38,129 nt of DNA from IMG/VR virus record IMGVR_UViG_2627854098_000005; one strand, written 5' to 3'. Shown here in pieces: positions 22,344-38,129 of this stretch. A program made the translations under genes and the position numbers. This DNA comes from a virus (taxonomy: Duplodnaviria; Heunggongvirae; Uroviricota; Caudoviricetes). The notes under the pieces were generated by a model. That model was given only the letters and a program-made list of their open reading frames with translations. It made no database searches and was not told where the DNA came from. Positions within the stretch are counted from its first letter, which is position 1; every line of letters starts with the position of its first letter.

Positions 22344-23402
22344 TTACGCTCCGGTTTCTGCTGCTGCGGCGCTGAAGTCGCCAATCTGGATGTTTTCCAC
22401 CAGTGCGGCGCAGCGGTAGTCCTCAACCACATAGGCTTCGTTAACGGATTCAAAGTTTTCAATCCGGTCACGTTTCGGGTTGTCGATAACTGAGCGGCGG
22501 CGGGTGTCTTCCTGCCAGTAGATGGACAGGTTATCCAGACGGGTGATCAGCAGTGCATTCGGCGGGAAGAACGGCGCACGCACGGCCTGCAGGCCACCCA
22601 TGCGTTTCTGACTGATGATCATATCGGCAGCCAGTTTTTCACTGTTTTCCTGCTCTTTGTTGACCAGCGGGAAATACTTGTCAGACAGCAGTTCACGACC
22701 GCAAATCACCACCAGATCGTCATCGTCCTGGTAGACCACATCGATAAGCTCATTGACGGCATCCATCACCACGGCGTCCAGGTTGGCATATTCGCCACCT
22801 TTCCCGACTTTCACCGCACCCGGTGTGGTTTCACCGCCCGTGGTGGTGCTGCCCATGACGTGATCCGGTGCATCTTCACGGATTTTCTGCAGCCAGCCTT
22901 TGTTCACATCCTGCAGCAGCGGGTTATCGCTACGGTTGGAGGTTTTCGCACGCTTCACGCCGTTAAAGCCGATCATGATGCGGTCCAGTGCCTGACGTTT
23001 CACGATGGCGTCACGGATGCGCACCTGGAAATCCTGAAACTTCGCCCACAGGTCCAGCTTCGCGTAGGTCAGCACCGTGTCAAAGTTGGTCTGCTCGCAT
23101 TTGTATTCCACATCGACCATCAGCGTCGGATCGACAGGTTCACGCTCTTTCGCGGTGGTGTCAGTGGTTCCGGCAATGGTGCTGCCAACTCCCAGCCCCA
23201 GCAGCTGACCGGACTGCTCAGTCACTGGCGTGACGTTAATCAGCGTCAGGAAAGCGGCGGACTGCTGGATCTGGTCTTCCAGCGTCTGCTGTACAGACGG
23301 CTCCACGGTGAACTTGCTGGACAGTTCTTCAACTGCCACACCGTTCAGACGCGCCAGCTGCTGCAGGTAAGCGTTAAAAGCAAAGCGGGTATTCTTCTTC
23401 AT
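22344..23402 (-). CDS. N: major capsid protein N
   Basis: 352-aa product of the P2 gpN family. Confidence 0.85.
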   Translation of the reverse strand: MKKNTRFAFNAYLQQLARLNGVAVEELSSKFTVEPSVQQTLEDQIQQSAAFLTLINVTPVTEQSGQLLGLGVGSTIAGTTDTTAKEREPVDPTLMVDVEYKCEQTNFDTVLTYAKLDLWAKFQDFQVRIRDAIVKRQALDRIMIGFNGVKRAKTSNRSDNPLLQDVNKGWLQKIREDAPDHVMGSTTTGGETTPGAVKVGKGGEYANLDAVVMDAVNELIDVVYQDDDDLVVICGRELLSDKYFPLVNKEQENSEKLAADMIISQKRMGGLQAVRAPFFPPNALLITRLDNLSIYWQEDTRRRSVIDNPKRDRIENFESVNEAYVVEDYRCAALVENIQIGDFSAAAAETGA

Positions 23403-35738: not shown

Positions 35739-35986
35739 TGCCTCTGATGTATTTCAGAATCGAACAAACTAAGGTTTAGATTGCATTCTGAAAGCGCATC
35801 AACGGTCATGGCTGCTATGTTGATCATCACTTTTTCGCGTTTTTTATCTTTGCGCAAACGGTGACGGATAAGGCGTCCGTCAGCCAACATGTCATTGATG
35901 GTATCGATGGACAGCCCTGTCAGCTCGCTATAGCGCTCAATAGTCACATGAGGCGTGGTAAGAGTGATTGAAATGTTAGGTCTCAT
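35735..35986 (-). CDS. apl: Apl/Cox-like excisionase and transcriptional regulator
   Basis: 83-aa ORF, first gene of the lytic operon and divergent from cI; assignment rests mainly on position. Confidence 0.55.
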
Positions 35987-36105
35987 GATGCAACATTCCT
36001 CGTTTAATGATGATTAATCAGGACGAATACGGATCGTTTGTATTTTGTGAACACCATAAACATACGATCGCTCAATGAAATCGTCAAGATAAAAGTTCAC
36101 TTGGA
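35987..36105. promoter_or_regulatory. immunity switch region with lysogenic and lytic promoters/operators
   Basis: AT-rich spacer between divergent apl and cI. Confidence 0.5.
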
Positions 36106-36681
36106 GTGACCATGAATTTGGAGAAAGGCGGACGAGGCGCTATAGAGCGCATGGTAGAAGCTTATGGATTCAAAACTCGACAGGCGTTGTGCGATCATTT
36201 AGGAATCTCTAAAAGTACACTCGCCACACGCTACATGCGTGACTCATTCCCAGCAGAATGGGTAATCCAGTGCGCCCTTGAAACGGGCACCTCGCTTAAT
36301 TGGCTCACAACCGGACATGGTTCAAAGCAAACTTCAGGTAATACAAATACTATGGAAGTTGCTAAATATGTATTATCTGATGGTGCCTTGCGTGAAGACG
36401 GTTTTTATATTTTTGATAAGGGATTTCTACCCTCTACGTTTAAAAAACCTTTTGTCATCACAGATAACAATTCTGAATTTATTTGTGATAAAGAATTTGA
36501 TGATATACGTGATGGTAAATGGGTAATAAGTATTGATGGCGAAGTAACGATCCGTGACATTACTCGTTTACCCGGTGGAAGAATCTTCGTCGAGGGTGGA
36601 AACAGAGCCTTCGAATGTAAGATAGAAGACATTGAAATAATTGGTAAAATTATAAGTTTAACAGTCAAGTATGTTAAATAG
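36106..36681 (+). CDS. cI: CI immunity repressor, 186-type
   Basis: 191-aa product with ...AYGF...QCALETGTSLNWLTTGHG... resembling recalled 186 CI. Confidence 0.7.
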   Translation: MTMNLEKGGRGAIERMVEAYGFKTRQALCDHLGISKSTLATRYMRDSFPAEWVIQCALETGTSLNWLTTGHGSKQTSGNTNTMEVAKYVLSDGALREDGFYIFDKGFLPSTFKKPFVITDNNSEFICDKEFDDIRDGKWVISIDGEVTIRDITRLPGGRIFVEGGNRAFECKIEDIEIIGKIISLTVKYVK

Positions 36682-36696
36682 TACCGGGAGGAAACT

Positions 36697-36888
36697 ATGC
36701 TTGGTAAGGTATTTTTTGTGGTTTTGTCATGTTCTTTGTTATTAAACCCACTAACTACCTATGCTAGAAATTATCCCTGCTCAGGGAAAAAGGGAGGTGT
36801 TTCTCACTGTACCTCAGATGGCAAATTCGTTTGCAATGATGGAACTATTAGTAAATCCAAAAAAATCTGTACTAAAAACTCACGATAA
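36697..36888 (+). CDS. small secreted cysteine-rich protein, candidate lysogenic-conversion moron
   Basis: 63 aa with signal peptide [23 protein letters not shown] and mature part containing Cys residues and Lys-rich; GGGAGGA ribosome-binding site; between cI and int. Confidence 0.5.
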
Positions 36889-37076
36889 CTTTTGCTTTTA
36901 TATCTGCGTCTAAAATAAAAATGAGCCGCAGGTTAACCGCAAAAGTTACATGCTCACATAGCAAAAAGAATAGCCAACTTCATTATGGCTTCAGTGAGAT
37001 GTATGGTCGTAGGATTTCATACATTGACACTGGTTATACATACAGTAAAAATGCTCTCTACTGGAGGGCATTTTTT

Positions 37077-38129
37077 ATGGCAGTACGAAAACTCACCACA
37101 GGGAAATGGCTTTGCGAATGTTACCCCGCCGGACGAAGTGGGCGTCGTGTGCGTAAACAATTCGCCACCAAAGGCGAAGCTCTGGCTTTTGAGCGTCACA
37201 CTATGGAAGAAACCGAATCAAAGCCATGGCTGGGCGCATCAGTGGATCGTCGAACCCTGAAAGACGTGGTTGAGCTATGGTTCAAACTACATGGTAAATC
37301 TCTGACTGCTGGGCAGCATGTCTATGACAAATTGCTGCTGATGGTTGACGCTCTGGGCAATCCTCTTGCAACCGATCTCACCTCTAAAATGTTTGCCCAC
37401 TATCGAGATAAACGCCTGACAGGCGAGATCTACTTCAGCGAGAAATGGAAGAAAGGAGCAAGCCCGGTCACCATTAACCTGGAGCAAAGCTATCTAAGTA
37501 GTGTTTTTAGCGAACTATCCCGTCTGGGCGAATGGTCGTATCCGAACCCACTGGAGAACATGCGAAAATTCACCATCGCAGAAAAAGAGATGGCATGGCT
37601 TACCCATGAGCAGATTGTTGAATTACTGGCTGATTGCAAACGTCAGGACCCAATTCTAGCACTGGTAGTTAAGATATGCTTAAGCACAGGCGCACGCTGG
37701 CGAGAAGCCGTAAATCTTACTCGTTCACAGGTGACCAAATACCGAATTACCTTTGTAAGAACGAAGGGGAAGAAAAACAGAAGCATCCCTATCAGTAAAG
37801 AGCTTTACGAAGAGATCATGGCGCTTGATGGGTTCAATTTCTTCACAGACTGCTATTTTCAATTTTTATCCGTGATGGAAAAAACGTCTATCGTGCTCCC
37901 TCGCGGCCAACTCACACACGTTCTGCGCCATACGTTTGCGGCGCACTTCATGATGTCGGGTGGAAACATTCTGGCCTTACAAAAAATTCTCGGACACCAC
38001 GATATAAAAATGACTATGCGTTACGCACATCTGGCACCGGATCATCTGGAAACAGCGCTCCGTTTCAATCCTCTGGCAACGCTGCCAAGTGGCGACAAAG
38101 TGGCGGCAGCGGTTGGCATTACCCCGTAA
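37077..38129 (+). CDS. int: tyrosine integrase (P2/186 family)
   Basis: Start at MAVRKLTTGKW... (ATG at 37077, GGAGGG ribosome-binding site); catalytic signatures ARWREA, HVLRHTF and RYAHL; stop codon is the last three bases of the window. Confidence 0.85.
   Translation: MAVRKLTTGKWLCECYPAGRSGRRVRKQFATKGEALAFERHTMEETESKPWLGASVDRRTLKDVVELWFKLHGKSLTAGQHVYDKLLLMVDALGNPLATDLTSKMFAHYRDKRLTGEIYFSEKWKKGASPVTINLEQSYLSSVFSELSRLGEWSYPNPLENMRKFTIAEKEMAWLTHEQIVELLADCKRQDPILALVVKICLSTGARWREAVNLTRSQVTKYRITFVRTKGKKNRSIPISKELYEEIMALDGFNFFTDCYFQFLSVMEKTSIVLPRGQLTHVLRHTFAAHFMMSGGNILALQKILGHHDIKMTMRYAHLAPDHLETALRFNPLATLPSGDKVAAAVGITP

What the first reader, a model, noticed from the sequence alone, without database searches (positions are those of the whole stretch)
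36697..36888. Small secreted cysteine-rich ORF embedded between cI and int
An AT-rich 63-aa ORF with a strong ribosome-binding site starts 15 nt after the cI stop and before int, so it should be expressed in the lysogen from the repressor promoter. The product has a typical signal peptide and a short mature part rich in Cys and Lys. Neither P2 nor 186 has a gene here as far as I recall. It could be a periplasmic lysogenic-conversion or superinfection-exclusion factor.
Basis: partly seen in the sequence, partly recalled or inferred. Interest (0 to 1): 0.5.

Follow-up and report, generated by a model that had tools for sequence, protein, structure and literature searches.

The report
Secreted YdcA-family mini-protein in prophage immunity operon
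The small ORF is a real, conserved gene for an exported 40-residue cysteine/lysine-rich protein of the uncharacterised YdcA family. It sits directly behind the repressor gene of a 186-like E. coli prophage, is already annotated in hundreds of genomes, and has no known function.

Summary
ORF 36697..36888 (+, 63 aa) starts 15 nt after the cI stop, behind a GGGAGG Shine-Dalgarno. It is AT-rich (35% GC against 50% for the window). It encodes a canonical Sec signal peptide (cleavage predicted after TYA23) and a 40-aa mature part (+7 net charge, pI 9.7, 4 Cys, 7 Lys).

It is a gene. It scores above the curated cut-off of NCBIfam NF007463 (YdcA family) and matches PHROG 6000. RefSeq annotates the identical protein (WP_000900883.1) in the same cI-ORF-int arrangement, which 591 of 5426 complete E. 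coli genomes carry. Family dN/dS is about 0.05-0.15.

The same cI-ydcA-(int) order recurs in Yersinia prophages. It also recurs in Haemophilus phages HP2 and S2, where the gene is unannotated and its ATG overlaps the cI stop.

The mature domain matches the repeated lobe of Legionella Dis2. Dis2 is a disulfide-pinned protein bound to outer-membrane lipoproteins of the Dot/Icm secretion system.

The function is unknown. The likeliest reading is a periplasmic accessory protein expressed in the lysogen. Superinfection exclusion is plausible but untested. Overall this is an ordinary moron of a known but uncharacterised family, of moderate to low interest.

The parts
36112..36681 (+). cI repressor gene of the 186 type (first gene of the lysogenic operon)
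   Evidence: Pfam PF07022 (2.8e-33) and PF16452 (5.4e-29). The RefSeq start corresponds to 36112 in identical loci. The C-terminal half (36350-36681) is 33.8% GC.
36686..36691 (+). Shine-Dalgarno GGGAGG of the ORF, 5 nt before the ATG
   Evidence: Read directly from the sequence.
36697..36888 (+). ydcA-family gene (63 codons plus stop)
   Evidence: Identical to RefSeq WP_000900883.1, 'YdcA family protein'.
36697..36765 (+). Coding region of the predicted Sec/SPase I signal peptide (23 aa, [23 protein letters not shown])
   Evidence: Rule-based analysis. All 58 of 58 distinct short homologues have a K/R n-region, a hydrophobic core, and a small residue at -3 and -1. This region diverges while the mature part is conserved.
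36766..36885 (+). Coding region of the mature 40-aa domain with Cys pattern C-x9-C-x8-C-x11-C
   Evidence: The four Cys are invariant or nearly invariant in 37 homologues, together with the motif [12 protein letters not shown]...FVCNDG.S.SKK.C. AF2 pLDDT is 83-90 in this part. It matches the Dis2 lobe.
36886..36948 (+). Long RNA hairpin starting at the stop codon, with no U-tract on the + strand
   Evidence: MFE fold of 36880-37085: -63.1 kcal/mol, z = -6.85.
36926..36942 (-). Terminator-like hairpin followed by a T-run, read on the minus strand. It would stop antisense transcription entering from the int/host side.
   Evidence: Scan hit TTGCGGTTAACCTGCGG + CTCATTTTTA. Its function is inferred.
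37047..37076 (+). 13-bp hairpin AAAAAUGCUCUCU-ACU-GGAGGGCAUUUUU plus a U-run that ends at the int ATG. It is terminator-like and sequesters the int Shine-Dalgarno.
   Evidence: Fold and sequence. The consensus scanner did not list it. It lies in the int module shared with Klebsiella phages from about 37017 onward.
37077..38129 (+). P2-type tyrosine integrase, last gene of the operon, ending at the window end
   Evidence: PF24624 3.2e-32, PF00589 7.2e-22, phrog_1 1.4e-74.

Best explanation
The ORF is a genuine accessory gene (a 'moron') of a 186-like E. coli prophage, integrated next to rcdA. It belongs to the YdcA family (NCBIfam NF007463, Pfam PF27300, PHROG 6000).

Shown: the gene is conserved under strong purifying selection. 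Its product has a canonical Sec signal peptide and a highly conserved four-Cys cationic core. It lies 15 nt behind cI in the same orientation, with a strong ribosome-binding site and no terminator-like site before it. It is linked to this cI allele as part of one AT-rich block (about 36332-37016: cI C-terminal domain, ORF and spacer).

Inferred: it is translated as the second cistron of the pL (cI) transcript in the lysogen and exported by Sec. It is then cleaved after Ala23 and oxidised to two disulfides, giving a 4.3-kDa periplasmic mini-protein. By analogy with the homologous lobes of Legionella Dis2, which sit under the outer membrane bound to the lipoproteins DotC, DotD and DotK, it probably acts by docking onto an outer-membrane-proximal protein or envelope structure. 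It is unlikely to be an enzyme.

The most likely consequence is an envelope-level trait of the lysogen. My leading sub-hypothesis, at about 0.3, is interference with entry of competing DNA (phage or conjugative). Close behind, at about 0.25, is envelope or acid-stress tolerance as reported for chromosomal ydcA. The structured spacer, with a terminator-like hairpin over the int ribosome-binding site, would let cI and this gene be expressed in lysogens while int stays low.
For: Family membership.

Conservation: the 37-sequence alignment shows divergent leaders and a conserved core. dN/dS medians are 0.05-0.15, and the window against JA0266 gives pN 0.014 versus pS 0.50.

Signal peptides: present in 58 of 58 homologues.

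Prevalence: 591 of 5426 complete E. coli genomes carry the cI-ORF-int arrangement, annotated as 'YdcA family protein'.

Recurrent synteny behind divergent 186-type cI genes:
- Yersinia L087, L088 and L104 (cI 34-38% identical, ORF 62-70%, int 47%).
- HP2 and S2, where the ORF ATG overlaps the cI stop.
- 52 of 116 further IMG/VR loci.

Module boundaries. Composition.

Dis2 homology: phmmer E 3e-5 with the full protein, 2.2e-4 with the mature part only, profile E 2e-4, and Foldseek top hit at probability 0.97. Dis2 properties come from PMC8486379 and PMC12716638.

Spacer structure: z = -6.85.

The same slot holds defence cargo in sibling prophages: PD-Lambda-1, PDC-S20 and PDC-M11.
Against: - There are no expression data, and pL was not located by the promoter scan.
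- Export, cleavage and disulfides are predicted, not measured.
- Dis2 itself is dispensable and its function is unknown.
- The ORF has no PADLOC match.
- Neighbours of family members across 77 genomes show no conserved partner, so context gives no functional handle.
- An IS5 insertion disrupts the gene in one strain, and phages with other cI alleles lack it. It is therefore non-essential for the phage.
Confidence: 0.7

Rival explanations
1. It is a dedicated superinfection-exclusion or anti-phage factor. The periplasmic peptide would block adsorption, tail penetration or DNA transit of incoming phages.
For: It is co-oriented with and immediately behind the repressor in three genera of P2-like phages. 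The slot between it and int carries recognised or candidate defence systems in sibling prophages. It is also carried as a moron in the tail modules of Moraxella and Acinetobacter phages.
Against: There is no PADLOC match. No experimental link between any YdcA-family protein and phage was found in the 30 papers that mention ydcA. Chromosomal, non-prophage copies are common, for example next to cybB in 5 of 77 loci.
Confidence: 0.28
2. It is a host-fitness (lysogenic conversion) factor for envelope or acid / organic-acid stress, functionally equivalent to chromosomal YdcA.
For: It is 57% identical to the E. coli K-12-type YdcA (L127/L128). Deletion of ydcA makes E. coli W sensitive to 300 mM 3-hydroxypropionate, and ydcA is reported as acid-induced under YdcI (PMC7642389). 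Family members are spread over chromosomes, plasmids and phages without a fixed partner.
Against: There is only a single phenotype, from one study, and its mechanism is unknown. That phenotype was suppressed by a yieP deletion. Nothing links it to the phage-borne subfamily.
Confidence: 0.25
3. It modulates type IV secretion or conjugation machines by docking on their outer-membrane lipoprotein ring, as the Dis2 lobes do. It could act, for example, as an entry-exclusion or helper factor for mobile elements.
For: The homology to Dis2 is significant. Dis2 contacts DotC, DotD and DotK. 3.9-4.1-kb MOBQ mobilisable Acinetobacter plasmids carry a family member next to a TraD-like gene. UniRef names the identical protein 'Conjugal transfer protein'.
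Against: No T4SS gene families are enriched among the neighbours. There is no T4SS in the window. The UniRef name is probably a propagated annotation. Loss of Dis2 has only subtle effects.
Confidence: 0.1
4. It is a secreted effector peptide: either a cationic antimicrobial or bacteriocin-like peptide, or a Pin-II-like protease inhibitor.
For: The mature peptide is small, disulfide-rich and has a +7 net charge. There are repeated weak phmmer hits to potato type II proteinase inhibitors, E 0.07-0.8.
Against: The hits are not significant. Pin-II domains have 8 Cys, against 4 here. There is no immunity or export gene nearby, and a Sec leader delivers only to the periplasm. Conservation across hundreds of species with chromosomal single copies does not fit a bacteriocin.
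Confidence: 0.05
5. It is a chance ORF or a decaying hitch-hiker with no function.
For: The region is AT-rich and has several overlapping spurious ORFs. One IS-disrupted copy exists.
Against: The HMM score is above the curated cut-off. dN/dS is far below 1 with saturated synonymous sites. There are 438 representative clusters in 1.8 billion proteins. The gene is intact in nearly all of the 591 E. coli loci sampled.
Confidence: 0.02

Closest known systems
E. coli K-12 YdcA and the YdcA family (NCBIfam PRK10040 models NF007462/NF007463/NF007464; Pfam PF27300; PHROG 6000)
   Same: The architecture is the same: a 20-25-aa Sec leader followed by the PCSGKKGG(V/I)SHC...FVCNDG.S.SKK.C core with four Cys. 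The ORF scores above the curated cut-off of NF007463. RefSeq names the identical protein 'YdcA family protein'.
   Different: It belongs to the phage-borne subfamily (NF007463), not the chromosomal cybB-linked ydcA subfamily (NF007462, 68.5 bits, below the cut-off of 118). It is 57% identical to K-12-type YdcA. It is encoded in a prophage immunity operon. The function of the whole family is unknown.
Legionella pneumophila Dis2 (Lpg0823), component of the Dot/Icm T4SS outer-membrane cap (PDB 7MUC/7MUD, chain AN)
   Same: Sequence similarity is significant over the Cys-containing core (C-S-K-x-G-G-[VI]-x-x-C...G-x-x-V-C-N-[DN]-G). Both have a signal peptide, disulfide stabilisation and a periplasmic location. 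Dis2 is the Foldseek top hit.
   Different: Dis2 has two tandem lobes and five disulfides, and is part of a T4SS. The phage protein is a single lobe with four Cys, and no T4SS is nearby. The literature calls Dis2 species-specific with no obvious homologues. That statement looks too narrow, although the relationship rests here on E-values of 1e-4 to 1e-5 only.
Unannotated ORF after cI in Haemophilus phages HP2 and S2 (NC_003315 2489-2671, complement)
   Same: It occupies the same position, directly downstream of a 186-type cI and upstream of int in the pL operon. It belongs to the same family and is 60 aa long with a Sec leader.
   Different: Its ATG overlaps the cI stop codon, so it is translationally coupled. 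A further gene, orf1(S), separates it from int. It is not annotated in the deposited records.
Classical prophage morons and lysogen-expressed envelope factors, recalled from general knowledge (lambda bor/lom, phi80 cor, T5 llp, P22 sieA) and not tested here
   Same: It is a small extra gene that is absent from close relatives, has deviant base composition, is presumably expressed in the lysogen, and has a product targeted to the envelope.
   Different: There is no sequence or structural relationship to any of them. It is not a lipoprotein or a membrane protein. No own promoter was detected, and it appears to ride on the repressor transcript.

Membership tests
YdcA family (NCBIfam NF007463 / PRK10040.1-2) | HMM score above the curated whole-protein cut-off | tested here: met
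   115.8 bits against a cut-off of 93, E 5.3e-34, covering residues 5-63 of the protein and positions 1-58 of 58 in the model.
YdcA family | N-terminal Sec signal peptide with a small residue at -3 and -1, immediately before the conserved core | tested here: met
   Rule-based check only, since no SignalP was available: K4, the hydrophobic core [12 protein letters not shown], and T-Y-A before R24. The same layout is seen in 58 of 58 distinct homologues.
YdcA family | Four conserved Cys and the core motif [12 protein letters not shown]-x(6-8)-C-NDG-x-S-x-SKK-x-C | tested here: met
   C38 and C46 are invariant and C28 and C58 are conserved in at least 90% of 37 sequences. The window protein has all four.
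Pfam PF27300 | Match to the Pfam model | not testable with these tools
   The local Pfam copy has no such model (one search returned only a sub-threshold unrelated hit). PF27300.1 is the precomputed annotation of the 98%-identical cluster representative P0001 and of nearly all homologues.
PHROG 6000 | HMM match over the full length | tested here: met
   E 1.9e-34, residues 3-59 against profile positions 1-56 of 56. The family is annotated 'unknown function'.
Dis2 (Lpg0823)-type T4SS outer-membrane-cap subunit | Significant sequence similarity to Dis2 | tested here: met
   phmmer E 3e-5 with the full protein and 2.2e-4 with the mature part only; profile E 2e-4; Foldseek rank 1, probability 0.97, 38% identity over 39 columns.
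Dis2 (Lpg0823)-type T4SS outer-membrane-cap subunit | Two tandem lobes pinned by five disulfides | tested here: not met
   The protein has a single domain with four Cys. Dis2's architecture is described in PMC8486379.
Dis2 (Lpg0823)-type T4SS outer-membrane-cap subunit | Physical or genomic association with a Dot/Icm-type T4SS | tested here: not met
   The gene lies in a P2/186-like prophage. No T4SS families appear among the 150 neighbours of family members.
Prophage moron (extra gene unit in a conserved phage backbone) | Absent at the same position in close relatives | tested here: met
   186 has cI and int abutting. P2 has a 115-bp gap with no annotated gene. Prophages with other cI alleles carry different cargo.
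Prophage moron | Base composition deviating from the backbone | tested here: met
   35.4% GC against 50.2% for the window. However, the adjoining cI C-terminal half (33.8%) and the spacer (36.7%) share the bias, so the unit is larger than the ORF.
Prophage moron | Own promoter and terminator | tested here: inconclusive
   No + strand promoter-like site lies between cI and the ORF. The hairpin right after the stop lacks a U-tract on the + strand.
Superinfection-exclusion / lysogenic-conversion factor | Expressed in the lysogen and changing a phenotype (phage plating, envelope) | not testable with these tools
   Only the operon geometry is available.
Known or candidate anti-phage defence proteins (PADLOC-DB 2.0) | HMM match | tested here: not met
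   0 families at E <= 0.01. Neighbouring cargo in sibling prophages does match: PD-Lambda-1, PDC-S20 and PDC-M11A/B.
Bacterial lipoprotein | Lipobox with Cys at +1, preceded by a full leader and conserved in homologues | tested here: not met
   V-L-S-C12 resembles a lipobox, but it lies only 11 residues from the N-terminus, the hydrophobic core continues after it, and this Cys is not conserved in homologues.
Potato type II (Pin-II) proteinase inhibitors | Significant similarity and the eight-Cys domain | tested here: not met
   E 0.07-1.8 only, and the protein has four Cys.

The most novel reading that the evidence does not exclude
YdcA-like mini-proteins, including this phage copy, may be single-lobe relatives of Legionella Dis2. 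Mobile elements (P2-like prophages behind cI, siphophage tail-module morons, 4-kb mobilisable plasmids) would use them to dock onto outer-membrane lipoprotein assemblies from the periplasmic side. That would block or tune envelope-crossing DNA-transfer machines, giving a previously unrecognised, repressor-coupled periplasmic exclusion mechanism. It would also mean that Dis2 is not Legionella-specific.
Probability: 0.15. Interest if true: 0.6.

Novelty: already known. Interest (0 to 1): 0.33.

Why it matters
If the protein has a lysogen phenotype, it would assign a first function to a family found across Proteobacteria. The family has 438 clusters at 50% identity, is present in about 11% of complete E. 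coli genomes in this prophage form alone, and also includes the K-12 orphan ydcA. A function would also explain why several genera of P2-like phages keep the gene glued to their repressor gene. The Dis2 link offers a structural template and a testable idea, namely binding to outer-membrane lipoproteins. As it stands, this is an already annotated gene of unknown function in a typical prophage cargo position.

Tried and rejected
- Pfam-A scan of the ORF found nothing usable, because the local copy lacks PF27300.
- Rfam found no family in 35900-37300, and no tRNA was found.
- PADLOC had no hit for the ORF.
- A neighbour-gene survey (77 upstream and 73 downstream ORFs in GTDB loci) found no conserved partner or operon, so guilt by association gives no function.
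- The consensus scan did not locate pL or any ORF-specific promoter. A near-consensus minus-strand promoter-like site at 36677-36649 is within chance expectation for this AT-rich stretch.
- A lipoprotein reading was rejected because the lipobox-like VLSC is too early and is not conserved.
- A protease-inhibitor reading was rejected because its E-values are not significant.
- The 'plasmid' hit NZ_CP148585 is a chromosomal prophage segment with rcdA and ybjJ, not a true plasmid context.
- pS88 and gonococcal 'ydcA' in the literature are unrelated genes (a methylase) that share the name.

Full report
**1. The observation**

It begins with ATG at 36697 and ends with TAA at 36886-36888 on the + strand, encoding 63 codons. 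The cI stop (TAG) is at 36679-36681, so exactly 15 nt separate the two genes. GGGAGG lies at 36686-36691, 5 nt before the ATG. The int gene starts at 37077 and runs to the last base of the window.

The ORF is 35.4% GC in a 50.2% GC window. Its product starts with a typical Sec leader: K4, the hydrophobic core [12 protein letters not shown], then NPLTTYA. The mature part of 40 residues ([40 protein letters not shown]) has 4 Cys, 7 Lys, pI 9.7 and a mass of 4293 Da.

Upstream is a 186-type CI repressor (PF07022 plus PF16452). Downstream is a P2-type tyrosine integrase. Apl/Cox-like and CII genes lie divergently upstream; the CII gene is annotated as such in identical RefSeq loci.

**2. Is it a gene?**

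Length alone proves nothing, because several spurious ORFs of similar size overlap the region. Homology does.
- The protein scores 115.8 bits on NCBIfam NF007463 (PRK10040.1-2), above the curated cut-off of 93.
- It also matches PHROG 6000 over its full length at E 2e-34.
- The identical sequence is RefSeq WP_000900883.1, annotated 'YdcA family protein'.
- Its 90% cluster has 355 member sequences seen on more than 1000 contigs.
- The 1.2-kb stretch covering cI, the ORF and the start of int is present at 80% coverage or more in 591 of 5426 complete E. coli genomes.
- The window itself is IMG/VR contig IMGVR_UViG_2778261247_000013.

In an alignment of 37 homologues the leaders diverge freely, while the core [34 protein letters not shown] and its four Cys are invariant or nearly so. 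Across 83 distinct core sequences, synonymous sites are saturated (pS about 0.8) while pN is 0.13-0.20. The median dN/dS over unsaturated pairs is 0.05-0.15. The closest divergent copy in the same slot (strain JA0266) differs by pN 0.014 against pS 0.50. All 58 distinct short homologues have a K/R n-region, a hydrophobic core, and a small residue at -3 and -1 just before the core.

**3. Position in the phage**

In 186, cI and int abut at position 22433. In P2, 115 bp separate C and int, with no gene annotated between them.

The slot is nevertheless a cargo site in 186-like prophages integrated at rcdA:
- vB_EcoM-813R9 carries a PD-Lambda-1 defence gene there.
- Strain WP5-W18 carries the candidate system PDC-M11A/B.
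- Klebsiella phage 4LV2017 carries an unassigned 349-aa gene.
- Strain JA0266 has cI, then ydcA, then a KAP NTPase (PDC-S20), then int.

A recent survey lists 'between integrase and primase' as a minor P2 defence hotspot (PMC13586616).

Pairwise comparisons place the boundaries. Phages with other cI alleles share sequence with the window only up to about 36330 (the cI HTH domain), and again from about 37017 (the int module). JA0266 shares 36139-36865 (cI plus ORF, 88% identical) and 36989 onward, with its NTPase inserted between those two segments. So the ORF travels with this cI allele. The AT-rich block from about 36332 to 37016 comprises the cI C-terminal domain (33.8% GC), the ORF (35.4%) and the spacer (36.7%), and it behaves as one unit. 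Variable cargo inserts downstream of the ORF.

**4. The cI-ydcA linkage recurs in distant P2-like phages**

In Yersinia alsatica, Y. aldovae and Y. nurmii, a family member (62-70% identical) lies between a cI only 34-38% identical and an int 47% identical to those of the window.

In the Haemophilus phages HP2 and S2, a 60-aa family member is present but unannotated. Its sequence is [60 protein letters not shown]. Its ATG overlaps the last base of the cI stop codon, which implies translational coupling within the pL operon.

Of 116 further IMG/VR loci retrieved with the HP2-type and Yersinia-type proteins, 52 have a 186-type cI just upstream and/or a P2-type int downstream. The other 64 are in different contexts. 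In Moraxella and Acinetobacter phages the gene sits inside the tail-gene module.

Family members also occur elsewhere:
- on the chromosome, next to cybB (the K-12 ydcA locus);
- on large plasmids;
- on 3.9-4.1-kb MOBQ plasmids of Acinetobacter, next to a TraD-like gene.

No partner gene is conserved among 150 neighbours. The family has 438 representative clusters at 50% identity among 1.8 billion proteins. Most members are 60-230 aa, some have tandem copies, and one protein of 2134 aa has 13 matched stretches.

**5. What the protein resembles**

A sequence search of the PDB gave one significant hit, chain AN of 7MUC/7MUD and related entries. The E-value is 3e-5 with the full protein, 2.2e-4 with the mature 40 residues alone, and 2e-4 with the family profile. 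Both repeats of the target are matched.

I conclude that the YdcA domain is homologous to one Dis2 lobe. The phage protein is not a Dis2 orthologue: it has one lobe and four Cys, and no secretion system is nearby.

**6. How it probably works**

Shown: the gene is under purifying selection, has a Sec leader, has a conserved four-Cys cationic core, is closely linked to cI, and shows homology to a disulfide-bonded envelope protein.

Inferred: the gene is transcribed from pL with cI. No terminator-like site lies between them on the + strand, and the HP2 copy overlaps the cI stop. The product would be exported, cleaved after Ala23 and oxidised in the periplasm. It would then act by binding an outer-membrane-proximal partner, and is unlikely to act as an enzyme.

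The 190-nt spacer before int is unusually structured (MFE -63.1 kcal/mol, z = -6.85). It has a long hairpin starting at the ORF stop (36886-36948). It also has a 13-bp hairpin plus U-run (37047-37076) that ends at the int ATG and buries the int Shine-Dalgarno. This would allow cI and the ORF to be expressed in lysogens while int stays low.

The phenotype conferred is unknown, and I rank the options as follows:
- exclusion of incoming DNA, about 0.28;
- envelope or acid-stress tolerance, as hinted for chromosomal ydcA (deletion is sensitive to 3-hydroxypropionate and the gene is under YdcI control; PMC7642389), about 0.25;
- modulation of conjugation or T4SS machines, about 0.1.

YdcA itself is still described as a small predicted periplasmic protein of unknown function (PMC11340327).

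**7. Novelty and verdict**

The gene and its family are already catalogued (RefSeq, NCBIfam, Pfam, PHROGs), and the exact locus is common in E. coli. The finding is therefore real but already known as an uncharacterised gene. Three modest additions came out of this work:
- The gene is part of the immunity module, and the same cI-coupled arrangement exists in Yersinia and Haemophilus P2-like phages, including an unannotated gene in the HP2 and S2 reference records.
- The cI-int slot in this prophage lineage is a defence-cargo site.
- The family is homologous to the lobes of Legionella Dis2.

None of these reveals the function. Interest is moderate to low.

Noticed in passing
window 36880-37085 (hairpins 36886-36948 and 37047-37076): The spacer between the ORF and int folds far better than shuffled controls (z = -6.85). 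A 13-bp hairpin plus U-run ends exactly at the int ATG and buries the int GGAGG. It looks like a terminator or translational block that keeps int low in lysogens. The consensus terminator scan did not list it.
   Followed up: partly
window 36926-36942, minus strand: A terminator-like hairpin with a T-run, oriented against the cI-int operon. In identical RefSeq loci the host gene rcdA converges on int, so this site could stop antisense read-through into the immunity operon.
   Followed up: no
[not shown]
   Followed up: yes
L170 3752-5083; L002 4091-5767; L171 1278-3482; L003 4067-5116: Sibling 186-like prophages carry known or candidate defence genes in the same cI-int slot: a KAP NTPase (PDC-S20), PD-Lambda-1, and PDC-M11A/B with an ASCH domain. 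Klebsiella phage 4LV2017 carries an unassigned 349-aa protein there. The slot is a cargo hotspot that the P2 literature I read mentions only marginally.
   Followed up: partly
L169 3752-4896 (E. coli strain a7): An IS5-family element (ISKpn26) is inserted inside the ydcA-like ORF at about window position 36767, so the gene is dispensable for prophage maintenance.
   Followed up: no
window 36332-37016: The cI C-terminal domain, the ORF and the spacer form one AT-rich block (34-37% GC) that is exchanged as a unit between prophages. The cI HTH domain (48% GC) and the int module are shared more widely. This suggests the block was acquired from a lower-GC phage lineage.
   Followed up: partly
L172 and L173 (Acinetobacter plasmids pApiMCR53a 3916 bp and pGFJ6 4066 bp): Tiny MOBQ mobilisable plasmids with five or six genes devote one of them to a YdcA-family protein, placed between a TraD-like gene and an unassigned 243-aa ORF.
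   Followed up: partly
P0176; L114, L116, L117, L124 and others; L106, L122: The family has other architectures. One 2134-aa protein has 13 matched stretches. Beta- and alphaproteobacterial forms carry a second Cys-rich C-terminal module (CxCRSGxYCxGPRGGxYC...SGxKSY). Providencia forms carry long Lys-rich repeat tails.
   Followed up: no
window 36677-36649, minus strand: A near-consensus sigma-70-like site (TTAACA-17-TATAAT, 11 of 12 matches) points antisense into the 3' end of cI. The number of such sites in this AT-rich stretch is within chance expectation.
   Followed up: no
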